Sequence record: MN882542
Length of the DNA: 64,000 nt
Source: Escherichia phage JN01
Direction: 5' to 3' (one strand)
Positions 1 to 51,281 of this stretch are shown one piece after another (positions within the stretch are counted from its first letter, which is position 1; each line of letters starts with the position of its first letter). The notes under the pieces were generated by a model that saw only the letters and a list, made by a program, of their open reading frames with translations, did not search any database and was not told the DNA's origin. A program made the translations under genes and the position numbers.

Positions 1-1180
1 GTTGCTTAAAAGTAGCTTAAAAGTTACGTAAATGCTAGCCCCCTTAACATTTTCTTAACAATTTCTTAACAAACCCTACATAGTTATGCTTTTAAGACAC
101 TTGTTAGCAACTTGTTAGCCCCTTGTTAAATCTCTGTTAAAACCACGTAAAAGCCTTGTAAGAGCCTTTGACATAGCCTTTAAAGCTCCTGTAAAGCCCT
201 ATAAAGAGCTTTCTACATAGTTGGTGTGTAATTACTAGAAAGAGACTAAAAAGAGCTTATAAGGAGCTATAAAGGGCTTTTAAGAGGGCTATTTAAAGGG
301 TCACTAAGAGGGAAAGGGAACGATAAGAAAAGAGATAGTGACCATGTTAATAGCTTGTTAAAAAGATTAAACACTTGTTAGGAACTTGTTAATTATCTTA
401 ACAAAATAACTCTTTAAAATTAACTTGTTAGCTCTTGTTAGTCATCTGTTAAGACTCTGTAAAGACCATGTATCAACTGTTAAGAAACTGTTAAGTTCTT
501 GTTAGTTCTGTTAAGAATCTGTTAAGACCTCTGAAGAGATGTTAAGAGGATGTAGTAGCTGTTAAGAGATTGTTAAGGATATTTTAAAATTCTGCAAAGG
601 GATGGTAAGGGAGCTGTTAAGGGCTACCAAGCAGATATACATCCTAATCAGATATTTTTCAGTTCCTTCAAAGACCCTAAAAAATGACTTGATAGTCCTA
701 TTTTATAAAAATTTTAAAATTCTGAATAATTACCTAGACAGTCTTCTAAAAATACAGGCATAAACAGGCTTATAAGATACCTTGTTAGTACCGTGTTAGA
801 CCTTGTGAGATAAGGTCTGTAAAGATATTCCTGTTAAGTTTGTTAAAACAGTCTATATAGAGGCTTAGTATTTCCTAGTGAACACCTATAGAGGGTATCA
901 TAGCTGACATAGAGATTAAGAGGTGTATAGGAGCTTCTAAGAGGGTGTAGAGGTATGGTTAAGGTGATTGTATAGGTTGTTAAGAAGGCTTGTTAGAAGA
1001 GTGTTTAGAAGGGCTATACAGAGGGGCTATTAAGACCACTAGATAGATACTAAGATACTATATAGTACTATATAACTATATAGAGAGTAAGATTAAGAAG
1101 GATGTTAAGAAGGGTAGATATTTTATTCACATATGATGGTGACCCAGAGGTTGGGACAACCGATAAAATTTTATAAAAAT
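1..1180. repeat. non-coding repeat-dense region; about 30 degenerate copies of YTGTTARR (core TGTTAAG), with reverse-orientation CTTAACA copies at 45-70, plus purine-rich TAAGAGG-type motifs and short TACTATA tandems near 1040-1085
   Basis: No ORF of 60 aa or more in any frame; stop codons are built into the repeat unit; motif copies visible by eye at 101-150, 347-585, 770-850, 960-1010. Confidence 0.8.
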
Positions 1181-1205
1181 TAAAAAGCCCCCAATTAAGG
1201 AGGCT
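1181..1205 (-). terminator. rho-independent terminator ending the leftward early block
   Basis: Minus-strand hairpin GCCUCC-UUAAUU-GGGGGC followed by a U run, immediately past the stop of the 1217 gene. Confidence 0.5.
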
Positions 1206-1216
1206 CTTAAGATATT

Positions 1217-1765
1217 TTAAACCAGTGTTTCCAGAACTGTTTTCAATGATGACTTGGTTGTCTGATAAAAATGAGTAAATCCATTGTTATTATCGAATAC
1301 CTGCATCATGATATCATCTCCCTTGATTGGGTACACTCGGATATCATAGTGAAAACCATTAAAGACACAAGAACCACTACAGAATCCTCTAAAGTCATCC
1401 ACTGAGATGTACTCTTCATGACCTGTGATTTTTATACAAACACCTTTACTCGGTCTCTTAGGGTTGATATCTTCCATCACAGACATACTCTGACCACCAA
1501 GAGACACTATAGTGACCACTTTACGGTTCTTCTGTCTAAAGTACATCTTAACTTTCTGTAAAGTGTCTTCATAGAACGGATAAGACTTCTCTACAAAGAT
1601 TCCTTCTAATGGCTCTTTACCGTTTACAATACCTCTGGTATGACGTACTGCAAAGATAATTTGTTGGAGCCAATCAAAATTTTCTTCGGATAGTGCTTCT
1701 CGAATATCATTCCAATCAAGGACTAGATAGTTACCTTCAACATCTTTTAAGTTATCTTTTTCCAT
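1217..1765 (-). CDS. hypothetical early protein
   Basis: ORF-track frame; track start at 1810 is TTG, so start moved to the internal ATG at 1765 just past the upstream stop. Confidence 0.5.
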   Translation of the reverse strand: MEKDNLKDVEGNYLVLDWNDIREALSEENFDWLQQIIFAVRHTRGIVNGKEPLEGIFVEKSYPFYEDTLQKVKMYFRQKNRKVVTIVSLGGQSMSVMEDINPKRPSKGVCIKITGHEEYISVDDFRGFCSGSCVFNGFHYDIRVYPIKGDDIMMQVFDNNNGFTHFYQTTKSSLKTVLETLV

Positions 1766-1778
1766 ATCTATCACACCA

Positions 1779-2243
1779 TTATCGTAAAACTTGGTAATCT
1801 GGTACTGCAAACTTGTTGTTGTTGTTTTTAATGAGGTCTTCTTTTGTTACAAAGAATGTAAGCCCACATAAGTGTGTATAGTGGCTACCATACTCAAATA
1901 CTTTAAGTAAGTATTCGCCATCATCATAAACATGCTCTACTACACCTTTTGCAACAATCTTTCCAGTCTTGAAATCTTTAAGAGGGTATACATTACCAAC
2001 TTTAGGAACTGTTTTCATCTCAGGTTCTTTTAGCTTCTCACCAGCTTCTACATCACCTAGTAAGTGAGAACTATCAAAAGCTACATGTTGCATATAAGCT
2101 TCTGAGCATTCCCAGATAAAGCAACTTACAAGAACCTTAGCAGCATGTCTTGAACAATTCAGCTTATCACAAATCTCTTTGTACATTTCATCTTTAGTTG
2201 AGTTGTCAAGCATTGCTTTTTGGACTACTTCTTTAATTTTCAT
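1779..2243 (-). CDS. hypothetical protein
   Basis: ATG start preceded by GGAGAG Shine-Dalgarno; tightly packed in a co-directional block. Confidence 0.6.
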   Translation of the reverse strand: MKIKEVVQKAMLDNSTKDEMYKEICDKLNCSRHAAKVLVSCFIWECSEAYMQHVAFDSSHLLGDVEAGEKLKEPEMKTVPKVGNVYPLKDFKTGKIVAKGVVEHVYDDGEYLLKVFEYGSHYTHLCGLTFFVTKEDLIKNNNNKFAVPDYQVLR

Positions 2244-15529: not shown

Positions 15530-15605
15530 AGTCCAAGTAGCTTATATGGTTAAAGCGCGTGTCTGAAAAACATGAGAAGAGGGTTCAAATCCCACTGGAC
15601 TACCA
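15530..15605 (+). tRNA. tRNA-Phe (anticodon GAA)
   Basis: Anticodon arm CGTGT-CTGAAAA-ACATG; T-loop GGGTTCAAATCCC; CCA encoded. Confidence 0.65.
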
Positions 15606-15621
15606 ATTTCAAAGGTGCTTA

Positions 15622-16356
15622 ATGAAAGAGATGACAGAACAAGGTAAGGAGATTTTTAGTCTCTTAAAAACCGGTAGAGGGTTTTCTAATCCCCTTATTA
15701 CTGGTGCAGCAGTTCTCGGTGGAACCGTAGCTGCCTCTACATCACTTGTAAGCTCTATTAGCTCTGTAGCAGACCCTACAATAAAGGATAAACTTGTTGC
15801 TGCTGGACTTACAACAGTTCTGCTTAATAGCTTTACAACGAGTCTGACAAGCACTACATCAACTACTAAGACACTGACAGATTACGGTCAAAAGTCCATT
15901 GATGAGTTTTCATCACGTATGCAGGTAGCAAAAGGGTATTCCAATGTTATGGGTGCAGCAGGAGAGCAAGTTGGTTGTACACCATTTAGTGGTATTATGG
16001 GTGTTGCTACAGAGTACGGTCAAAAAGCTATTGACACAATTAACAGTACACTAGACGGTGTTAATGATGTATTAAGTGACTTACAAGATGCTATTGATAA
16101 AGGTCTTGATACTGTTTCTGATTTAGCTAACCAAGCTGTTAGCAAGATTAATGAAGGTATCTCGAAGATTACAGCTTATGCAGATGAAGTTGTGCAGATG
16201 ATTGAAGAAGAAGCTGCCCTTATTGCAGAGTACCTTAAAACGAATATCAATGGGTTCTTAGCAGGTATCTTACCAGACTGGTTTGATGATGCTTGTAAAA
16301 CTGGTGTAATTGATACTATTGCAACACCAGAAATGAAGAACGCATTACAGAAATAA
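15622..16356 (+). CDS. hypothetical Ser/Thr-rich protein with N-terminal hydrophobic segment, flanked by tRNAs
   Basis: Track start overlaps tRNA-Phe, so start moved to ATG 15622; stop abuts tRNA-Ser; hydrophobic LITGAAVLGGTVAASTSLV. Confidence 0.5.
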   Translation: MKEMTEQGKEIFSLLKTGRGFSNPLITGAAVLGGTVAASTSLVSSISSVADPTIKDKLVAAGLTTVLLNSFTTSLTSTTSTTKTLTDYGQKSIDEFSSRMQVAKGYSNVMGAAGEQVGCTPFSGIMGVATEYGQKAIDTINSTLDGVNDVLSDLQDAIDKGLDTVSDLANQAVSKINEGISKITAYADEVVQMIEEEAALIAEYLKTNINGFLAGILPDWFDDACKTGVIDTIATPEMKNALQK

Positions 16357-16357
16357 T

Positions 16358-16450
16358 GGAAGATTAACCCTAAAAGGTAAGGGAGCAGTTTGCTAAACTG
16401 CCAGTAGCTGAGAAATCGGTGTACCAGTTCAAGTCTGGTATCTTCCTCCA
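16358..16450 (+). tRNA. tRNA-Ser (anticodon GCT), long variable arm
   Basis: 93 nt; perfect acceptor GGAAGAT/ATCTTCC; anticodon arm GCAGT-TTGCTAA-ACTGC; CCA encoded. Confidence 0.75.
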
Positions 16451-16454
16451 ATTT

Positions 16455-16530
16455 GAATCCGTGACAGAAATGGCTATGTACCTGTCTGCAAAACAGGTTT
16501 ATAAGGGTTCGAGTCCCTTCGGATTCTCCA
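16455..16530 (+). tRNA. tRNA-Cys (anticodon GCA)
   Basis: Perfect acceptor GAATCCG/CGGATTC; perfect anticodon stem CCTGT/ACAGG with loop CTGCAAA; CCA encoded. Confidence 0.8.
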
Positions 16531-16569
16531 AGTTATTTTACTCTCTCTCTCAATTAAAATAATAATAAT

Positions 16570-16630
16570 GCCCTGCTATAAGTATTCTTCCTTTCGCTAC
16601 CGAAGAGTATTTTTAGACAGGGCTTTTTTA
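16570..16630 (+). terminator. terminator-like structure after the tRNA array
   Basis: Outer stem GCCCTG/CAGGGC around an inner imperfect hairpin, followed by TTTTTT. Confidence 0.45.
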
Positions 16631-16694
16631 CAGAGTTATACTTTATAAGAAGACTTATACAGTATGTCTCTGACGTACATTGTGGTTTCTCCTT

Positions 16695-16718
16695 GACGGT
16701 CTCTGTACCGTCTTTTTT
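16695..16718 (+). terminator. rho-independent terminator
   Basis: GACGGT-CTCTGT-ACCGTC followed by TTTTTT. Confidence 0.55.
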
Positions 16719-16754
16719 AAGGAGAAACATGGTTAATTATTTGGAGAAAACATA

Positions 16755-16955
16755 ATGAGCGAGACCGTTTATAAAGAACTTTATGAAGCTAATAAGAAGC
16801 TAGAATTTATGCAGAACACTATCATGGCAATTGCAGACAGATTGTCTGTAGCAACAGGTATTGATATCAAAGAAGCCTCTATGGATGCACTTCTTGATGC
16901 TGTTGATGCAAAGTTCGAAGTTAAGAAAGAAGAGACTGCTACAGACTCTGAATAA
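16755..16955 (+). CDS. hypothetical small protein upstream of terminase
   Basis: 66 aa ORF with ATG start and GGAGA Shine-Dalgarno. Confidence 0.5.
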   Translation: MSETVYKELYEANKKLEFMQNTIMAIADRLSVATGIDIKEASMDALLDAVDAKFEVKKEETATDSE

Positions 16956-16976
16956 TTCTATTTGCGGAGGTGCTTA

Positions 16977-18578
16977 ATGGACTTAAATGCTGTTAAGCAG
17001 AAGCGAGTGGAAGATGTTAGGAAAGTCCTAGCTGGAGAGTTGGGGCTTTCTGATGAAGTAAAAGAAATTATCAAATCATTCGGTAAAGACCCCTCTAAAT
17101 TCCTTCCAACTCAAATTCTGACTTTATTAAGATACACACCAGACCAAGTTAGACTTATCTTCAAATTGATGACTGATAAGAACTATGTAGCCCCTCAGCC
17201 GGGTTCTCAAGAGGTGTTTTTAAATACTAATGCTGACTTGGTTTTATATGGTGGTGCTGCTGGTGCTGGTAAAACTGCTGCATTGTTAATGGACTCTTTA
17301 AGGTTTATTGAAGACCCTAACTATAATGCTGTATATTTCCGTCGAAATACAACACAGTTACAAGGTGGTTTATGGCCTGCTGCAAAGAAACTATTTGGTA
17401 AGTTTGGTGGGGTTCCTCACGAGCAGAAGATGACTATCACATTCCCCTCTGGGGCAACTATCAAGTTCACCTACCTAGAACTTGAAAAGCACGCTGAAGG
17501 TCATCAGGGTATTGAATACTCAGCTATCTACTTTGACGAAGGTACACACTTCTCTGCTTCACAGATTTCATACCTACAGACCCGTCTACGTTCTGGTGCT
17601 GAAGGTGACTCATACATGAAGATTTCTATGAACCCAGATAGAGACCACTTCATTTATGATTGGGTAGAACCATTCTTAGATGAAGAAGGTTACCCAGACC
17701 CTGAGAAGTGCGGTCGTATTCGTTGGTATGTTATGAATGATGGTGTGATGGTTTCTGATTGGGAAAGAGACAAGATTCTTGAAATGTTCCCTCTTGAGAT
17801 TCCTCAGACATACACCTTCATCTCTGGTACGATTGATGATAACCCAATCCTTGACTTCTTAGAACCTAAATATCGTGGTAAGTTGGAAAACAACACACCT
17901 GTAAACGTTGCAAGACTTCGTTTCGGTAACTGGAAGGCTCGTGCAGAAGGTTCAAACTATTGGCAAAGACAGTGGTGTGAGATTGTTGATTCACTCCCAG
18001 AAGATGTGTTTGATGTCAGAGCATGGGACTTAGCAGCAACTTTACCATCTGAGATTAACCCTAATCCAGACTGGACAGCGGGTGTTAAGATGGGTAAATC
18101 TAAAAAAGACGGTTGCTATTATATCATTGATGTAGTAAGATTTAGAGATAGACCCTCTGGAGTCGAAACACAAATTAATTTGACTGCTGAAAGTGACGGT
18201 AAGCGAACTGGTATTTTTATCCCTCAAGACCCAGGCGCTGCTGGTAAATCCTATGCAACATCCCTCATCAGGAAACTTGCCGAGAAAGGTTATCGCGCAA
18301 GAGCTAAACCAACAAATAAAGATAAAGTTACCCGCTTTGCGGGATTTTCTGCTGCTTCTGAAGCTGGACTTGTAAAAGTCTTGAGAGGTAGCTGGAACGA
18401 AGCTTACTTCCAAGAACTTGAAGGTTTTTGTGGTGATGGCAAAACTAAAGATGACCAAGTGGATGCTACCAGTGATGCTTTCAACAGTCTTAACGAAGTT
18501 AAATTATTCAAGCCACCATCAATGGGTGCTCATACAGACTTAGTGAGAGGAAACCCATATGAGGGGCTTAGACGTTGA
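16977..18578 (+). CDS. terminase large subunit
   Basis: Walker A-like LYGGAAGAGKTAALL; about 530 aa; immediately upstream of the portal; start at ATG 16977 after GCGGAGG. Confidence 0.85.
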   Translation: MDLNAVKQKRVEDVRKVLAGELGLSDEVKEIIKSFGKDPSKFLPTQILTLLRYTPDQVRLIFKLMTDKNYVAPQPGSQEVFLNTNADLVLYGGAAGAGKTAALLMDSLRFIEDPNYNAVYFRRNTTQLQGGLWPAAKKLFGKFGGVPHEQKMTITFPSGATIKFTYLELEKHAEGHQGIEYSAIYFDEGTHFSASQISYLQTRLRSGAEGDSYMKISMNPDRDHFIYDWVEPFLDEEGYPDPEKCGRIRWYVMNDGVMVSDWERDKILEMFPLEIPQTYTFISGTIDDNPILDFLEPKYRGKLENNTPVNVARLRFGNWKARAEGSNYWQRQWCEIVDSLPEDVFDVRAWDLAATLPSEINPNPDWTAGVKMGKSKKDGCYYIIDVVRFRDRPSGVETQINLTAESDGKRTGIFIPQDPGAAGKSYATSLIRKLAEKGYRARAKPTNKDKVTRFAGFSAASEAGLVKVLRGSWNEAYFQELEGFCGDGKTKDDQVDATSDAFNSLNEVKLFKPPSMGAHTDLVRGNPYEGLRR

Positions 18579-43295: not shown

Positions 43296-43595
43296 TTAAT
43301 CTGCCAACCTTAAGTTAAAATTAACACCAAATTTTTCGCATACTTCCAACATAAACTCAAGCGAGACATTACCAGTGAGATTGATTATGTTGGATACACG
43401 AGCCTGAGAGATACCACAAATTTTAGCAACTTGCTCTTGAGAAAGACCTCTGGATTTAATCTCTCTCTTAAAACGATGTGCAACGAAATCTCTCATTTCA
43501 TCTACATCCATTGGACAAATATAACTCTCCATTTCAGCCTCTCTGTCAGCCTCCCAATCATCTTGTGGAGCATAAGGGTCAAAAACCTCATTCAT
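43296..43595 (-). CDS. HTH (XRE-like) transcriptional regulator
   Basis: Helix-turn-helix LSQEQVAKICGISQARVSNI; track start is TTG, moved to ATG 43595. Confidence 0.65.
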   Translation of the reverse strand: MNEVFDPYAPQDDWEADREAEMESYICPMDVDEMRDFVAHRFKREIKSRGLSQEQVAKICGISQARVSNIINLTGNVSLEFMLEVCEKFGVNFNLRLAD

Positions 43596-43800
43596 CTTTC
43601 TTCTTCCGTTTGCGTGAAGTGTCAATCAATAAATCTATGTTTGTAGCCCTAACCTTTTCACGTTCACCGTTAAGATAATCATCAAGAGCCTTTTCAATCT
43701 GTGAATCATCTTGACAGATAACTGTAAAGACTGTAAAGCCGTCTGTATCATCAATTATCTTACCATAACCGCTTCTGGGATGTAACTTTTTAAGAGCCAT
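43588..43800 (-). CDS. hypothetical protein with basic C-terminus
   Basis: 70 aa ORF with ATG start. Confidence 0.45.
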   Translation of the reverse strand: MALKKLHPRSGYGKIIDDTDGFTVFTVICQDDSQIEKALDDYLNGEREKVRATNIDLLIDTSRKRKKKDE

Positions 43801-47087: not shown

Positions 47088-49787
47088 TTAGTGTACTTCA
47101 AGCCAGCTTTTACCAACCTTACCAGTACCTGTAACAAGTGTTTCTTTCTTAAGACCTAAGTTTTTAGAAGCTTGTCCATAATACCAGTCAGTAACTGCTT
47201 TCACATCTGCCGTCATACTTTCTGGACATTCCCAGCTTGTTTCATCGTGATATGCGCAGAGCAAACGAGCACCAATAGCTGGTTGACGACCATTCAACTT
47301 CATCAAGCCTTCGTCAATCATACGGCGACAAGCAAGGTTAATTGCCTCATTTTGAATCTGAGCCTCTGAACCCATCAAAAGATAGTTCAACAGTTTGTGT
47401 GGAGATTTACACCACAACCAAGCTCCAGCAACCTTTACAAACCCCCCTTTAGAGATTGCAGCAGTCTTACCAAACACCTCTTCAAGTGCCTTTTTAGTCG
47501 CTTTGTAGTCAGCTTCCAAGTCATCTAGTAGCTTCTTAATCTTAGGCAAACGAATAAAGTAAGTCTGTTTAGTCAGTGCACCTTCCTGAGTAGTTGCAGC
47601 TTTAATCGTCTTAGCAAACTTCTCATCACCTGCACCGAACAGCAGTGCATAGATACCATTCTTAGCTTTCTTACGACCCTTGCTAATCTCATGGAGAAGG
47701 TTCTCATCCTGAGTAGCTCGACAAGTTAAGATATCTTGCTCATCATTCAAGCTAAAGTAAATACTGTTCAGTGTGTGTGCATCAGTCCCTGAATAGACAA
47801 CGTAAAGGTCGTTCTCAGAGTCATAGCGAAGGTACTTATCAATCTCTGGATTGAGGTACTCATCAAAGTGTTTGCAGTAATATCGTCCATCTTCTTGACG
47901 AATAAACTCAATCTCTTCTTTACCTTGCGTTACCGCTTTGGTGAAGTCTTTGTCACCCATAAAGTTACAAAGGAGAACTAGCTGGGCTGAGTTCATATCT
48001 ACAGAGACAACGTTAGTACCTTCCTCACAAATCCACACTGCCCTCATTGGTTCCCCATAGACAGCAGCACCAGACGGTACGTTTACAATACCATATTGTG
48101 TCATACGTCCAGTTGAAGTACCAAATACCATTGCACCAGCACTAAGGCGACCATCAGGACGAATCTGGTTCAACCAACCTTTTTCATCATCCTTTGAGTT
48201 CTCAATAGTTCTGCGTCGGTGCATCAAAGTATAGTACTTAGCAATCTTCTGTCCAAGCTCACCTTCAATCGTATCATAAGATGATTCAGTAAGTTTTGGT
48301 GAAGTACGGATTAAGCAAGGCTCAAGCAAATCTGTGTACTTCTTCACAGACCAGTTATGCTCAATGTACTGGACACCTTCATGTTCAACATAACTCAAAC
48401 CACACCGTTCAACCATCTCCTGCCACTTAGGATGCTTGGTAATCATCTTTTTGTTGTCTTTGAAACGACAAACCTTAACAGGACGACCATCTGAGTCTTT
48501 CTTGTAGTTCCAGTCATCTGGAATCCAACCAACTGATTTCAAGTAGTCTTTCACAACTGCTACCTGAGTCATACGAGAAACTTCGAACTCAATTGGTGTA
48601 TATGGTGCATCAATCAAACCTGTGTAGCGACTTGACTCAAGTTCAAAGTGGTTAACAACATGACTGTTATAGTACTTCACAGTCTTAACTGTTTTTACTG
48701 GCTTCCAGTCTTTGCATTTCTTACCAATCTTTGCATTCAACTCATTGCAAATTGCACGAGCATCCTTCATTGCTACAAAACCTTCCTTGTACTCTTCACC
48801 AGTTACAGAGTTGGTTGGTGTATAGCAATTCCGCTTTTCAATGTTAAAAATCTTTGTAGTTGGCTTACCAAATGGCTTGATTTCATATGTCTGCATCTCA
48901 CCGTTACGTACCTGCTGACGATACTTTGTCTTAGGGTACTTGGTAATTCTCTTCAGTCCATCTGCATGACCAAACGCTTCAACATACTCATTCCAAGCTT
49001 TTGCAAATTCTTCTCCAGTGACTTTACCTTTGGTCTTAATAGTTGGTGGAAGGTGTGGTTCAACTTCTGAAGCAAGCTCATTAGTCAACTTGTCAAGTTC
49101 CTTTACATGAAACTCCATAAGCTCTTTATCAGCTTTCCAACCATTGATAGCCTGTTGACTCATCCAGAAAGATGTTTCTTTAGCTCGCATGTAGGTTTCA
49201 TAAGTGTCTACACCACACTTCTTTAACTTCAGATATTCATTATCCAGTGCACGTTTAGTTTTGGCGTTAATACGGATATCTTCTACAACACGAGTGAAGA
49301 TTTCTGCATTCCACACACCCCAATGTTCAATCTCTGGTTTACGTACACCAACACGAGCACCCCATGCTGCCAAGCCATGAGCACCTTTATAGCCCTTTGG
49401 AGTTGGTCTATCCATCCACTGAACACGAGACTGGATAAGAGAATCCTGAAAGAAATTACCCCACGGCTTACACTTTGGATTATCAAAGTTCCACAAATCA
49501 GGTGCAATGTGATTGAAAACCCACCAGTCATACCCCAGACCATTATGGATGCAGAGTCGTTTTGCCTTTAACGCAAACTCAATACCTTCACGTAAGCCAC
49601 CCTTAATGTACTTGGTATACTTGTGACCGAGGATAGGCTCATCTGTAAATACCCATACAGGTGGCTCTTCATCGTCAGATTTATAGTCTGCGAAAGCCAT
49701 TACGTGCACTTTAGTGAACTCAAGGAGTAAACCATCAGTTTCTGTATCACCAACTAAATGTAAGTTTTTAAAATCTACGTTTTCCAT
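47088..49787 (-). CDS. DNA polymerase, family A, with 3-5 exonuclease domain
   Basis: Exo I motif DTETDGL; motif B KKAKNGIYALLFGAG; motif C YHDE; start at ATG 49787 with GAGGGAG Shine-Dalgarno. Confidence 0.9.
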   Translation of the reverse strand: MENVDFKNLHLVGDTETDGLLLEFTKVHVMAFADYKSDDEEPPVWVFTDEPILGHKYTKYIKGGLREGIEFALKAKRLCIHNGLGYDWWVFNHIAPDLWNFDNPKCKPWGNFFQDSLIQSRVQWMDRPTPKGYKGAHGLAAWGARVGVRKPEIEHWGVWNAEIFTRVVEDIRINAKTKRALDNEYLKLKKCGVDTYETYMRAKETSFWMSQQAINGWKADKELMEFHVKELDKLTNELASEVEPHLPPTIKTKGKVTGEEFAKAWNEYVEAFGHADGLKRITKYPKTKYRQQVRNGEMQTYEIKPFGKPTTKIFNIEKRNCYTPTNSVTGEEYKEGFVAMKDARAICNELNAKIGKKCKDWKPVKTVKTVKYYNSHVVNHFELESSRYTGLIDAPYTPIEFEVSRMTQVAVVKDYLKSVGWIPDDWNYKKDSDGRPVKVCRFKDNKKMITKHPKWQEMVERCGLSYVEHEGVQYIEHNWSVKKYTDLLEPCLIRTSPKLTESSYDTIEGELGQKIAKYYTLMHRRRTIENSKDDEKGWLNQIRPDGRLSAGAMVFGTSTGRMTQYGIVNVPSGAAVYGEPMRAVWICEEGTNVVSVDMNSAQLVLLCNFMGDKDFTKAVTQGKEEIEFIRQEDGRYYCKHFDEYLNPEIDKYLRYDSENDLYVVYSGTDAHTLNSIYFSLNDEQDILTCRATQDENLLHEISKGRKKAKNGIYALLFGAGDEKFAKTIKAATTQEGALTKQTYFIRLPKIKKLLDDLEADYKATKKALEEVFGKTAAISKGGFVKVAGAWLWCKSPHKLLNYLLMGSEAQIQNEAINLACRRMIDEGLMKLNGRQPAIGARLLCAYHDETSWECPESMTADVKAVTDWYYGQASKNLGLKKETLVTGTGKVGKSWLEVH

Positions 49788-49847
49788 TTTTACTCCCTCT
49801 AAAATCATTAACCTCATACATTACTGCAAAAAATTATAAAAAGCAAG

Positions 49848-49877
49848 TTGACAATGTGCTTGACAAGGTGTTAATCT
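49848..49877 (+). promoter_or_regulatory. tandem TTGACA element (TTGACA-N6-TTGACAAGGTGT) with TAATCT
   Basis: Near-identical to the element at 8692; divergent region between the polymerase and the 50045 gene. Confidence 0.45.
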
Positions 49878-49983
49878 TTGCGAAGTGGGTTTTTACTTAA
49901 AAGGTTACTTAACAGTTTAACTATACAGATACTTTAAAACTCTTAAAAGATTATTTAATAGCTTTTAAAAAGCTTTAAAGTAT

Positions 49984-50000
49984 AACGTATAGAATACGTT
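49984..50000. promoter_or_regulatory. palindrome AACGTAT-AGA-ATACGTT (operator-like)
   Basis: Perfect 7 bp arms between the promoter element and the 50045 start. Confidence 0.35.
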
Positions 50001-50044
50001 AAGATAAAAGATTAAAACTTAATAGTTACTTAAAAGAGGCTTAC

Positions 50045-50467
50045 ATGCAGAAAATGTTTGTTCACCCAGACATAGCTGACTTTGTTAGAGCTTTGCAGAA
50101 GTTGGAAGAACTTGACATTGCTGCTCAACGGGAATATGCTCACCATCACAGGAGAATGGTTGATATACAACATGAAATAGAGTTGTCTGAAAACTATGAA
50201 GATGACTTAAAATGCTCTGTGTTTGAGCATATGAAAGATGTTGCTACAGCGAGACGTAAAGCTAAAGACACAGTTGCTTTACTAGATTCTCTTAAAAAGA
50301 GGTTGCAAAGTGGTACAGACCTGTGTAATCTAGCGTCACTGATTAACGATGTTGAAACTTCTTGGGATAGACATTACTATCCACGTTCTGAAAAGACACT
50401 TGACTTTTCTTCATCAGAAAACTTAAAATGTTCTAGAAAGAAACTTAACCAACTGAGAGAGAAATAA
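50045..50467 (+). CDS. hypothetical protein
   Basis: 140 aa; ATG with AAGAGG Shine-Dalgarno. Confidence 0.6.
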   Translation: MQKMFVHPDIADFVRALQKLEELDIAAQREYAHHHRRMVDIQHEIELSENYEDDLKCSVFEHMKDVATARRKAKDTVALLDSLKKRLQSGTDLCNLASLINDVETSWDRHYYPRSEKTLDFSSSENLKCSRKKLNQLREK

Positions 50468-50468
50468 T

Positions 50469-51281
50469 ATGAATACTACTGTAGACCAGATGCTTGAAGA
50501 AAAAGGTATTGACGAAGCATTCTTAATCAATGCCGTAGAAAGCATGGCTATGATTCTTCGTGGAAACAACTACACAGAACAGTTTATGCCTGCAAGCTAT
50601 AACTTGCCTAAAGACAAGTCTGATAACGGTGCTTTTGCAGAACAGGTTAATATGATGCTGTGTGATAAAACACTTGCTTTAGCATCTATCGTTGTAGGTG
50701 TTGATGCTCTTGCAGAGTTCATTTTCTATGAGATGCAGAAAAATGACTATATTGCCATGACCTCTGAAGAAAAAGACTCGCTACTGCTCTTAGGTTATGA
50801 TGAGCTAGTTGACCTGTTAATTTCGTCAACAAGTGCTGTTATGGCTGCTCTTGAGAAGCGAATGGAAGAGAAGCTGTCACGATATGAAAAACTTGATTGG
50901 GGTGTAGAAGAGTTAAACCCACGAATCAAAGAGATTATCCAGCAAACTAAAGACTCTTTAGCAGAAGCTGTGAAAGATGATTCTGTAGCTGATGTAGAAC
51001 CACTACAGGTGAAGGTTGCTCTGATGATTCCAGCTATCTCTACAATGATGAATATCGTTGCACTAATCCAACTTTCTCAGATGTTGGGTGTAACCATTGA
51101 GTTCGTTGAGGAGATGACTGGTGGTGTCAGTATGCAAGCAATCAATGATGTTTTGGTAAACATTGGCGCTTCAATCATTGAAGAGAAGCTACGTATCAAC
51201 TTCGGTGATGATTTTGTGAAGCAAATCTCAGCTATTGCTGAAAAAGAGCACTCACAAATTACTAGTGACCAACTGCACTAA
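50469..51281 (+). CDS. hypothetical protein
   Basis: 270 aa ORF with ATG start. Confidence 0.6.
   Translation: MNTTVDQMLEEKGIDEAFLINAVESMAMILRGNNYTEQFMPASYNLPKDKSDNGAFAEQVNMMLCDKTLALASIVVGVDALAEFIFYEMQKNDYIAMTSEEKDSLLLLGYDELVDLLISSTSAVMAALEKRMEEKLSRYEKLDWGVEELNPRIKEIIQQTKDSLAEAVKDDSVADVEPLQVKVALMIPAISTMMNIVALIQLSQMLGVTIEFVEEMTGGVSMQAINDVLVNIGASIIEEKLRINFGDDFVKQISAIAEKEHSQITSDQLH

What the first reader, a model, noticed from the sequence alone, without database searches (positions are those of the whole stretch)
1..1180. 1.2 kb ORF-free region built from about 30 copies of a TGTTAAG heptamer
Dense phage genomes rarely leave 1.2 kb non-coding. This stretch holds many degenerate YTGTTARR copies, with three reverse-orientation CTTAACA copies at 45-70 and direct copies clustered at 100-150 and 350-585, followed by purine-rich TAAGAGG motifs and TACTATA tandems. 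Iteron-like arrays in two orientations suggest a protein-binding array: a replication origin, a packaging or terminase recognition region, a partition-like site, or a terminal regulatory region. The window may begin near a genome end.
Basis: seen in the sequence. Interest (0 to 1): 0.7.

Follow-up and report, generated by a model that had tools for sequence, protein, structure and literature searches.

The report
Terminal repeat of Felix O1-like phage
The repeat-filled, gene-free stretch is the roughly 590-bp direct terminal repeat, plus its non-coding flanks, of a Felix O1-like phage, so it holds the physical ends of the packaged DNA; the end region was already mapped in relatives, but its roughly 30 evenly phased, conserved TGTTAR sites seem undescribed.

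Summary
Window 1-1216 has no conserved ORF and holds 31 TGTTAR sites, 16 of them exact TGTTAAG. That is about 14 times the density in the rest of the window. The sites are spaced 10-11 bp apart, so they lie on one face of the helix.

The window is a Felixounavirus (Felix O1-like myovirus), and the region is 90-96% identical in more than 229 phage records. Records opened at experimentally or PhageTerm-defined ends place the physical genome end at window 36-38. They place the other edge of the direct terminal repeat (DTR) at 628-630. So the array largely is the DTR, and 629-1216 is the non-coding spacer inside the left end.

Across 15 genomes of three genera, the TGTTA core is 94-99% conserved while the spacers are 67-84% conserved. 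Both DTR edges are invariant and are inverted copies of TAGCCC(CC)TTAACA. Erwinia phage M7, a fourth genus, has the same layout in its 444-bp DTR.

The most likely function is a phased protein-binding platform that guides terminase cutting and repeat duplication. T7's CCTAAAG arrays next to its terminal repeat are the nearest analogue. The binding protein is unknown, and no small terminase subunit is recognisable.

The DTR itself is already known; the array architecture appears undescribed. Interest is moderate.

The parts
1..37 (.). Last 37 bp of the non-coding spacer that precedes the DTR at the right genome end (as it appears in a concatemer or circularised assembly). It includes the conserved AAAGTTACGTAAA at 20-32.
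   Evidence: The alignment with the right end of Pr103Blw and with UAB_69 shows the same sequence directly upstream of the DTR. In relatives the spacer extends about 420-450 bp further left, to a terminator.
34..45 (.). Left DTR junction, GCTAGCCCCCTT. The physical left end of virion DNA maps at 36 (UAB_69 annotation) or 38 (PhageTerm-opened records).
   Evidence: Records Pr103Blw, I14.1, ZX4221, SeKF_63 and SPJ41 start or end at window 38. Pr103Blw carries an annotated DTR at 1-581 and 87841-88421, and the two copies are identical. The UAB_69 DTR starts at TAGCCCCC. The junction is near-invariant (0.976) in 15 genomes of three genera.
38..628 (+). Direct terminal repeat (about 591 bp; 36-630 by the UAB_69 boundaries). 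It is present once in this window and would be at both ends of packaged DNA.
   Evidence: Mapping from the Pr103Blw and UAB_69 annotations. A 608-bp DTR was shown by Bal31 digestion and run-off sequencing in UAB_Phi87 (PMC4837284), and a 581-bp DTR by PhageTerm in Pr103Blw (PMC8303462). 23 of the 31 TGTTAR sites lie here.
43..71 (-). Three reverse-orientation heptamers (CTTAACA on the top strand) at 11-bp spacing, immediately inside the left end.
   Evidence: They are conserved in Felixounavirus, Suspvirus and Mooglevirus. Erwinia phage M7 likewise has reverse TTAACA copies at positions 21 and 32 of its DTR.
102..140 (+). Four direct (C)TTGTTAR units at exact 11-bp spacing.
142..340 (+). Second repeat family of 10-11-bp units ending in TAAAG or TAAGAG (for example GCCCTATAAAG). 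This is the less conserved centre of the DTR and the stretch of highest predicted intrinsic curvature in the 64 kb.
   Evidence: TRF finds periods of 10-12. The spectral peak is at 11.2 bp. Conservation is 0.77-0.83. The wedge-model bend maximum, 187 degrees per 105 bp, starts near 118 (model parameters recalled from memory).
345..621 (+). Main array of 17 direct TGTTAR sites phased at 10.3 bp, plus one reverse copy at 397-403. That copy forms the perfect inverted pair TTGTTAA-N5-TTAACAA (386-404) inside the best conserved island of the DTR (385-414).
   Evidence: Motif columns are 96.8% conserved against 80.2% for the rest. The right cluster in M7 has the same phasing, 10.2 bp with R = 0.89.
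615..643 (.). Right DTR junction, TGTTAAGGGCTACC|AAGCAGATATACATC. The physical right end maps at 628 (PhageTerm-type records) or 630 (UAB_69). Read from the end inward it is an inverted copy of the left junction, TAGCCC(CC)TTAACA.
   Evidence: The Pr103Blw right copy ends at window 628. pEP20 and EcSzw_1 start at 628 and 627 on the minus strand. UAB_69 ends at 630. The 27 bases TGTTAAGGGCTACCAAGCAGATATACA are identical in 14 of the 15 genomes (SUSP1 reads TGTTTAG), and GTAGATATACA is kept in M7. The island scores 0.988.
629..1182 (+). Unique non-coding spacer inside the left genome end. It holds 8 more TGTTAR sites and purine-rich TAAGAGG-type units (900-1120, 65% purine). It also holds the TACTATATAG tandem (1045-1084) and nearly invariant islands at 698-716, 764-806, 844-863 and 1058-1086.
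   Evidence: Promoter-like matches are not enriched, 6 against 4.7 +/- 2.5. There is no Rfam family above noise.
1183..1208 (-). Intrinsic terminator that ends the leftward operon (first gene 1217-1810, minus strand). It marks the right limit of the non-coding terminal region.
   Evidence: The same terminator is annotated in phage ASO1A.

Best explanation
Window 1-1216 is the concatemer-junction region of a Felix O1-like phage (Felixounavirus). It holds the last 37 bp of the right-end spacer, the roughly 590-bp direct terminal repeat (36/38 to 628/630) and the roughly 550-bp left-end spacer. The spacer ends at the terminator of the leftward operon.

The TGTTAR units are sequence-specific binding sites set one helical turn apart. 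A protein that reads them would coat one face of the DNA, and the DTR centre between the two arrays is predicted to be intrinsically curved.

I propose that this nucleoprotein structure is the packaging recognition complex. It would position the large terminase nuclease on the two invariant junction sites, which are inverted copies of TAGCCC(CC)TTAACA. One strand would then be cut at each edge of the single repeat in a concatemer. Strand-displacement synthesis across the 590 bp would give every packaged genome a repeat at both ends, as in the T3/T7 model.

Shown here:
- the position of the ends, by homology to mapped relatives;
- enrichment, phasing and orientation of the sites;
- purifying selection on TGTTA(R);
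- invariance and inverted symmetry of the two junctions;
- the same layout in a fourth genus.

Inferred: that a protein binds, that it belongs to the packaging machinery, and the nick-and-duplicate mechanism.
For: Identity:
- 255-267 phage records match, 229-236 of them nearly full length, almost all Felixounavirus.
- TerL in the window is 99-100% identical to Felixounavirus TerL.

Ends:
- Pr103Blw carries identical 581-bp repeats at both record ends, and the left one starts at window 38.
- Four more records start or end at 38, and two start at 627/628 on the other strand.
- UAB_69 annotates its DTR at the equivalent of 36-630.
- A 608-bp DTR was shown by Bal31 digestion and run-off sequencing in UAB_Phi87.

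Sites:
- About 14-fold enrichment.
- The arrays are confined to the terminal region; only one 11-bp-spaced pair lies elsewhere, against about 0.8 expected.
- Phase is 10.3 bp with R = 0.85, reached by 0 of 3000 simulations.
- The TGTTA core is 94-99% conserved against 67-84% for the flanks in 15 genomes at 76-95% identity.
- Six of the seven indels of at least 5 nt inside the DTR are 11 or 22 nt long.

Junctions: both are near-invariant islands and mutually inverted.

Cross-genus: Erwinia phage M7 has a 444-bp DTR with reverse copies at its left edge, phased direct TGTTAAG copies toward its right edge and a conserved junction. Only about 127 nt of it is alignable to the window.

Context: the region lies between convergent terminators, has no promoter excess, no RNA family and no conserved ORF.

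Analogue: T7 has 11 CCTAAAG heptamers in its first 420 bp, inside and next to its terminal repeat.
Against: - No binding, cleavage or packaging experiment exists for these sites.
- The ends of this particular phage were not measured; the window holds only one copy of the repeat.
- Boundary calls differ by 2 nt between sources (36/630 against 38/628). A few records start at window 24 or 58, which may reflect BLAST trimming or looser end calls.
- No small terminase subunit or other candidate binder was found. The ORF upstream of TerL is a 66-aa acidic protein of unknown family, and the flanking genes have no known domains.
- The only annotated HTH protein has no detectable homologue in the Erwinia phages that keep the motif.
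- Indels of 11 or 22 nt can arise from slippage without any selection on phase.
- The function of the T7 arrays used as the analogue is itself unsettled (my recollection of the literature).
- The curvature result rests on model parameters recalled from memory.
Confidence: 0.6

Rival explanations
1. The arrays serve replication rather than packaging. They could be iterons of an origin. Alternatively they could be a dense set of priming sites that lets the phage primase-helicase start the last lagging-strand fragment close to each 3' end, which would fix the length of the single-stranded tails that anneal to form concatemers.
For: - Iteron-like phased repeats, AT-rich stretches (681-740 is 85% A+T) and high predicted curvature.
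- Orientation fits a priming role. At each virion end, the strand whose 3' end is terminal carries 5'-TGTTAAG-3' near the terminus. These are the reverse copies at 43-71 for the left end and the direct copies up to 615-621 for the right end.
- The phage encodes a primase/helicase, as annotated in SeKF_63.
Against: - No initiator-like gene adjoins the region.
- Only one DnaA-box match in 1.2 kb.
- The conserved core is 5-6 nt, much shorter than classical 17-22-bp iterons.
- Another candidate origin exists at the divergent DNA polymerase / primase region near 49-50 kb, where GC skew flips and predicted curvature ranks second.
- The recognition sequence of this primase is unknown.
- In T7 the comparable arrays hold no T7 primase site; this rests on my knowledge of the GTC recognition site.
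Confidence: 0.15
2. The array binds a phage or host DNA-architectural protein for a purpose other than terminase recognition. Possibilities are protecting the ends from exonucleases, anchoring or pausing DNA during ejection, condensing the first or last packaged segment at the portal, or insulating the ends from the two converging transcription units.
For: - Phased sites on one helix face and strong predicted curvature are typical of wrapping or filament-forming proteins.
- The region is kept free of genes and is closed by terminators on both sides.
- Both ends present the same 12-14-nt inverted sequence, which would suit an end-binding protein.
Against: - No candidate protein was found.
- No consensus sites for IHF, and only one Fis-like match.
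- The arrays extend hundreds of bp from the ends, more than end capping would need.
- The exact coincidence of the array edges with the DTR cut sites is more simply explained by packaging.
Confidence: 0.15
3. The repeats have no sequence-specific role. They would be slippage-generated filler in a spacer whose only requirements are its length, its curvature and the two cut sites.
For: - Indels in units of 11 and 22 nt show active slippage.
- The central 142-340 block and the spacers between sites drift freely.
Against: - The TGTTA core is 94-99% conserved while adjacent bases are 67-84% conserved.
- The same hexamer and layout persist in Erwinia phages, where the rest of the region is not alignable.
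- Orientation is strongly biased, 27 direct to 4 reverse, with the reverse copies at fixed places.
Confidence: 0.06
4. The stretch encodes small proteins or a non-coding RNA, or is an assembly artefact.
For: Some GenBank records annotate short hypothetical proteins here.
Against: - The two longest ORFs are disrupted in most relatives.
- There is no 3-nt periodicity.
- There is no Rfam match better than E = 0.25, and promoters are not enriched.
- The sequence was recovered independently in more than 229 genomes.
Confidence: 0.03

Closest known systems
Direct terminal repeats of Felixounavirus phages (UAB_Phi87 608 bp, Pr103Blw 581 bp, UAB_69 618 bp annotated)
   Same: It is the same element. 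The sequence is 90-93% identical, with the same left and right junctions, and it lies between the same convergent gene blocks.
   Different: Those reports and records give only the coordinates of the repeat. None that I could read describes the TGTTAR arrays, their phasing, the inverted junction motif or their conservation beyond the genus.
Phage T7 terminal repeat with its adjacent short-repeat arrays (called SRL and SRR by Dunn and Studier 1983; names from memory)
   Same: Both are non-coding ends of a phage that packages from concatemers with exact short terminal repeats. In both, a heptamer is repeated many times inside and right next to the repeat. T7 has 11 CCTAAAG in its first 420 bp, 3 of them inside the 160-bp repeat, and more copies upstream of the right repeat.
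   Different: - The heptamer differs (CCTAAAG against TGTTAAG).
- T7 spacing is 13 bp and multiples of it, not 10-11 bp.
- T7 has a single reverse-strand match among its copies, with no inverted cluster at an edge.
- The T7 repeat is 160 bp against about 590 bp.
- T7 has a known small terminase (gp18; my knowledge) and the phage promoters phiOL and phiOR on either side. Neither was found here.
- There is no sequence homology.
SPP1 pac region, with pacL and pacR boxes bound by the small terminase G1P (from memory: Chai, Lurz and Alonso 1995)
   Same: In SPP1, short repeated boxes phased with the helix and intrinsically bent DNA flank the cleavage site and are wrapped by an oligomeric recognition protein. 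This is the mechanism I propose here.
   Different: SPP1 is a headful packager with one cut site, far fewer boxes and an identified TerS. Here there are two fixed cut sites, about 30 sites and no identified binder. The comparison was not tested with tools.
Iteron-type replication origins (lambda ori, P1 oriR, plasmid origins; from memory)
   Same: Clusters of direct repeats in helical phase, next to AT-rich DNA and bent DNA.
   Different: Classical iterons are 17-22 bp long and sit beside or inside the initiator gene. Here the conserved core is 5-6 bp, no initiator gene is adjacent, and the cluster coincides with the mapped genome ends.
Long terminal repeats of Twort-like/SPO1-like phages bounded by short inverted boundary sequences (from memory: Lobocka et al. 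2012)
   Same: The edges of the terminal repeat carry the same short sequence in inverted orientation, which has been proposed as the terminase recognition or cut signal.
   Different: Those repeats are several kb long and code for proteins, and the boundary sequences are unrelated. The comparison was not tested with tools.

Membership tests
Short exact direct terminal repeat (DTR) of a concatemer-packaging phage | The same sequence is present at both ends of the linear virion DNA. | tested here: met
   The window holds only one copy, so the test was done on homologues. Pr103Blw carries 581 bp identical at both record ends and M7 carries 444 bp identical at both record ends. Several other records hold a second partial place at the opposite end.
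Short exact direct terminal repeat (DTR) of a concatemer-packaging phage | Fixed, non-permuted physical ends. | not testable with these tools
   This needs reads or virion DNA of this phage. For relatives it was shown by Bal31 digestion plus run-off sequencing (UAB_Phi87, PMC4837284) and by PhageTerm (Pr103Blw, PMC8303462).
Short exact direct terminal repeat (DTR) of a concatemer-packaging phage | The large terminase belongs to a clade of DTR-generating terminases. | tested here: met
   Window TerL (16962-18578, Terminase_6N/6C) is 99-100% identical to Felixounavirus TerL. Bardina et al. place that TerL in a Felix O1-type DTR cluster.
Short exact direct terminal repeat (DTR) of a concatemer-packaging phage | The junction sequences at the repeat edges are conserved among relatives. 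| tested here: met
   Both junctions are near-invariant in 15 genomes of three genera, and the right junction is partly kept in Kolesnikvirus.
T7-type short-repeat arrays at the terminal repeat | Many copies of one heptamer inside and immediately next to the terminal repeat, in non-coding DNA. | tested here: met
   Here 23 TGTTAR sites lie in the DTR and 8 in the adjoining spacer. T7 has 11 CCTAAAG in its first 420 bp. This is a likeness of layout only, with no sequence homology, so it is an analogue rather than a homologous family.
Iteron-type replication origin | Repeats of about 17-22 bp that are the binding sites of an initiator protein. | tested here: not met
   The conserved footprint is TGTTA(R), 5-6 nt within a 10-11-bp unit whose remaining bases drift.
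Iteron-type replication origin | The initiator gene lies adjacent to, or overlaps, the repeats. | tested here: not met
   The three genes on each side have no Pfam domain and fall only in PHROG families of unknown function. This is a weak negative, because an unknown initiator cannot be excluded.
Iteron-type replication origin | DnaA boxes and an AT-rich unwinding element next to the repeats. | tested here: inconclusive
   There is one TTWTNCACA match, at 1123, and two 85% A+T stretches within 681-740.
Iteron-type replication origin | Replication starts there. | not testable with these tools
   This needs marker-frequency or 2D-gel data. GC skew in the window follows gene orientation and is uninformative.
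Partition (parS-type) site | ParA/ParB-type genes in the genome, usually next to the site. | tested here: not met
   No such product appears in the full Pharokka annotation of the related phage SeKF_63 or among the flanking genes. The phage is virulent.
Small-terminase pac site (SPP1/P22 type) | A small terminase subunit is encoded, usually just upstream of TerL, and binds the site. | tested here: not met
   No TerS family matched the ORFs upstream of TerL. The adjacent 66-aa ORF is acidic and of unknown family, and none is annotated in SeKF_63. Binding could not be tested.

The most novel reading that the evidence does not exclude
Ounavirinae phages, which have no recognisable small terminase, may use a different recognition system. 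An unidentified protein, or an N-terminal module of TerL, would polymerise on about 20-30 helically phased TGTTAR sites spanning the whole terminal repeat. It would read the same inverted junction motif at both edges. The array would then measure out and mark the segment to be duplicated, which would be a new type of pac or terminal-repeat recognition apparatus.
Probability: 0.3. Interest if true: 0.55.

Novelty: new member of a known kind. Interest (0 to 1): 0.38.

Why it matters
Felix O1-like phages are widely used for Salmonella and E. coli typing, biocontrol and therapy, and they are becoming engineering chassis (for example Bas63). How their DNA is recognised and cut for packaging is nevertheless unknown, and no small terminase has been identified.

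Knowing that the gene-free 1.6 kb is the terminal repeat plus its flanks has practical uses. It shows where genomes should be opened for annotation. It marks which DNA must be kept in synthetic or rebooted genomes. It also shows where insertions are likely to be harmful.

The phased, selected TGTTAR sites and the two inverted junction sites give concrete, mutable targets. They can be used to find the recognition protein and to test the long-standing nick-and-duplicate model of terminal-repeat formation outside T7 and T3.

Tried and rejected
- **PhageMaP essentiality study of Bas63.** This Felixounavirus is 94% identical to the window here. I read the study for insertions in this intergenic region, but it reports no data for it.
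- **Literature.** The Felix O1 and wV8 genome papers do not mention the array. Searches for TGTTAAG with phage and repeat, and for Ounavirinae with DTR, found nothing relevant. A search for T7 repeat arrays was unproductive, so I read the T7 ends directly. The paper on Erwinia phage M7 is not held.
- **RNA and promoters.** No Rfam family, no promoter excess.
- **Coding.** Both small ORFs decay in relatives.
- **Candidate binders.**
  - The ORFs upstream of TerL and the six genes flanking the region gave no DNA-binding or terminase small-subunit family.
  - The XRE-type HTH protein at 43296-43625 was rejected as a binder, because tblastn finds it in three genera but not in the Erwinia phages that keep the same motif.
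- **More distant relatives.** Hafnia phage SPARTY is another Kolesnikvirus and added nothing beyond M7. Pseudomonas phage JG004 (TerL 41% identical) has a different gene order within 20 kb of TerL, so its end region could not be located with the calls left.
- **Scan of viral contigs for three TGTTAR at 11-bp spacing.**
  - It recovered Ounavirinae contigs and also unrelated contigs with TTAACA/TGTTAA arrays.
  - The pattern itself selected these contigs, so they say nothing about shared function.
- **Host-factor consensus sites.** IHF, Fis, DnaA and Chi sites are not enriched.
- **Failed run.** One simulation timed out and was rewritten.
Full report
**What is in the sequence.** Window 1-1216 has no ORF longer than 53 aa. 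The two longest ORFs (602-763 plus strand, 267-374 minus strand) lose their start codons or gain stops and frameshifts in related genomes. The first real gene is 1217-1810 on the minus strand, preceded by an intrinsic terminator at 1208-1183.

Exact TGTTAAG occurs 16 times in 1-1109. The whole 64 kb holds 44, and shuffles predict 17.4 +/- 4.7 for the entire window. The degenerate TGTTAR occurs 31 times (27 direct, 4 reverse). That is 25.5 per kb against 1.8 per kb elsewhere.

The reverse copies lie at 43-71, the direct clusters at 102-140 and 345-621, the TAAGAGG units follow, and the TACTATATAG tandem is at 1045-1084.

The sites are spaced one helical turn apart:
- For the 17 sites between 340 and 630 the best period is 10.3 bp with R = 0.85. 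None of 3000 simulated arrays reached that value.
- In 38-340 the spectral peak is at 11.2 bp.
- There is no 3-nt periodicity.
- Outside this region there is a single 11-bp-spaced pair in 63 kb, about what chance predicts.

**Where it comes from.** The region matches 255-267 phage records, 229-236 of them over nearly its full length at 85-96% identity. Almost all are Felixounavirus, the Felix O1-like myoviruses. The large terminase in the window (16962-18578) is 99-100% identical to that of these phages.

In annotated relatives the non-coding tract is about 1.65 kb. It extends 420-450 bp to the left of window position 1 and lies between two converging transcription units, each closed by a terminator.

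**The physical genome ends lie inside the finding.**
- Phage Pr103Blw (PhageTerm, 581-bp repeats; PMC8303462) is deposited with identical repeats at both ends. Its first base aligns with window 38 and the last base of the repeat with window 628.
- I14.1, ZX4221, SeKF_63 and SPJ41 also start or end at window 38. pEP20 and EcSzw_1 start at 628 and 627 on the other strand.
- UAB_69 annotates a 618-bp DTR equivalent to window 36-630.
- For the close relative UAB_Phi87, a 608-bp DTR was shown by Bal31 digestion and run-off sequencing (PMC4837284).

So 36/38 to 628/630 is the direct terminal repeat. Positions 1-37 are the tail of the right-end spacer, and 629-1216 is the spacer inside the left end. 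The window therefore runs almost exactly from the left virion end inward, as comparison with the end-opened SeKF_63 genome shows. The TGTTAR array begins at the left DTR edge; only one site occurs in the 450 bp upstream in relatives. 23 of the 31 sites lie inside the DTR.

**Evidence that the repeats are functional sites.** I aligned the whole non-coding region of 15 genomes from Felixounavirus, Suspvirus and Mooglevirus, which are 76-95% identical to the window.
- Inside the DTR, the columns under TGTTAR are 96.5% conserved and the others 80.3%.
- Averaged over the 20 direct sites in the DTR, conservation is 0.94-0.99 for T-G-T-T-A and 0.90 for the R. It is 0.67-0.84 for the six bases before and the five after, and the seventh base (G) scores only 0.75. 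Selection therefore acts on a 5-6-nt core, not on the unit as a whole.
- Six of the seven indels of at least 5 nt inside the DTR are exactly 11 or 22 nt. That preserves phase, although slippage alone could produce it.
- The best conserved islands are the two junctions. They are GCTAGCCCCCTT at 34-45 and TGTTAAGGGCTACCAAGCAGATATACATC at 615-643.
- The other standout island is 385-414, which holds the perfect inverted pair TTGTTAA-N5-TTAACAA.
- Read from each end inward, the two junctions are inverted copies of TAGCCC(CC)TTAACA.

**A fourth genus.** Erwinia phage M7 (Kolesnikvirus) shares only about 127 alignable nucleotides with the window. Its 444-bp DTR is identical at both record ends. It has reverse TTAACA copies at its left edge and direct TGTTAAG copies toward its right edge. 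The direct copies are phased at 10.2 bp with R = 0.89, and the conserved junction ...|GTAGATATACA follows. A Salmonella Kolesnikvirus (SeKF_13) shows the same pattern. The motif and layout are thus older than the alignable sequence.

**Physical property.** A dinucleotide wedge model, with parameters recalled from memory and therefore approximate, ranks this 1.2 kb first of 104 chunks for predicted curvature. It puts the maximum for the whole window at about 118-230, the TAAAG-type block between the two TGTTAR clusters.

**What it is not.**
- No Rfam family matches, and promoter-like sites are not enriched.
- Classical origin features are missing. The conserved core is too short for iterons, no initiator-like gene adjoins the region, and there is only one DnaA-box match.
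- No partition genes are annotated in a complete related genome.
- It is not an artefact, since more than 229 independent assemblies carry it.

**Most likely mechanism.** I take this to be a phased protein-binding platform that organises packaging. A sequence-specific protein would coat one face of the repeat. The curved centre would bring the two edges together. The terminase nuclease would cut one strand at each inverted junction site, and displacement synthesis would duplicate the 590 bp, as in the T3/T7 model.

The nearest known analogue is T7. Its first 420 bp carry 11 CCTAAAG heptamers inside and next to the 160-bp terminal repeat, with further copies before the right repeat. T7 differs in motif, in spacing (13 bp), in near-uniform orientation and in having a known small terminase. 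From memory, the SPP1 pac site (phased boxes wrapped by the small terminase) and the inverted boundary sequences of Twort-like long terminal repeats resemble the proposed mechanism.

The weak point is the binder:
- No small terminase is recognisable.
- The 66-aa ORF upstream of TerL is acidic and of unknown family.
- The flanking genes have no domains.
- The one annotated HTH protein has no detectable homologue in the Erwinia phages that keep the motif.

**Rivals.** A replication role is the best alternative. At each end, the strand whose 3' end is terminal carries 5'-TGTTAAG-3' close to the terminus. That would suit priming sites that limit terminal under-replication, but nothing else supports it. 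An architectural, end-protecting or ejection-related binding array is also possible. Functionless slippage repeats are unlikely given the core-specific conservation across genera.

**Novelty and verdict.** That felixounaviruses have a roughly 0.6-kb DTR at this place is already known and annotated. I found no description of the TGTTAR arrays, their helical phasing, the inverted junction motif or their conservation across Ounavirinae, neither in the Felix O1, wV8 or UAB papers nor by text search. I file it as a new member of a known kind, short-repeat arrays at phage terminal repeats. Interest is moderate: the identity is ordinary, but the architecture gives direct handles on an unknown packaging recognition system.

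Noticed in passing
window 1-64000: GATC is completely absent from the 64 kb: 0 sites against 189 +/- 13 in shuffles and 209 by a second-order Markov estimate. Thirty of the 64 six-base palindromes are also absent, including GAATTC, CTGCAG, ATGCAT, CAGCTG and GGTACC. This suggests strong avoidance of restriction or Dam sites.
   Followed up: partly
window 386-404 (island 385-414): The perfect inverted pair TTGTTAA-N5-TTAACAA is the only head-to-head pair of the hexamer inside the DTR. It sits in the DTR's best conserved 30-nt island (0.993 across 15 genomes). It could be a nucleation or dimer site for the unknown binder.
   Followed up: partly
window 698-716, 764-806, 844-863, 1058-1086: These are nearly invariant islands (0.99-1.0) in the unique spacer just inside the left end. 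They are better conserved than most of the DTR. Their function is unknown; a pac-type recognition site or a promoter is possible.
   Followed up: no
window about 49200-50500 and about 41000: GC skew flips sign at about 41 kb and about 50 kb, where gene orientation changes. The chunk starting at 49249 has the second highest predicted curvature. By the SeKF_63 annotation this is the divergent DNA polymerase / primase-helicase region, an alternative origin candidate.
   Followed up: no
window 14374-18578: No small terminase is recognisable upstream of TerL. The neighbours are a 66-aa acidic protein (phrog_4397, unknown), a 265-aa DUF7217 coiled-coil protein and a 185-aa DUF7338 protein.
   Followed up: partly
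window 43296-43625 (minus strand): This XRE-type helix-turn-helix protein is annotated as a transcriptional regulator or repressor in relatives. It is present in Felixounavirus, Suspvirus and Mooglevirus, but tblastn finds no hit in Erwinia Kolesnikviruses.
   Followed up: partly
L097 7180-7530; L100 10870-10980; L125 4290-4500; L089 595-730; L102 75-235: Unrelated IMG/VR viral contigs, with no blastn similarity to the window, carry clusters of TTAACA/TGTTAA or CTAACA at about 11-bp spacing. Several are two opposed arrays, and one lies at a contig start. The search pattern selected them, so their meaning is unclear.
   Followed up: partly
window 9728-10944: This 1.2-kb chunk has an unusually strong 11.3-nt spectral peak (power 5.5, the highest of the background chunks). 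By the SeKF_63 annotation it is mostly coding.
   Followed up: no
window 36-38 and 628-630: PhageTerm-opened records put both ends 2 nt further inside than the UAB_69 annotation does (38/628 against 36/630). This symmetric offset could reflect short single-stranded overhangs trimmed during library preparation, or simply different calling methods.
   Followed up: no
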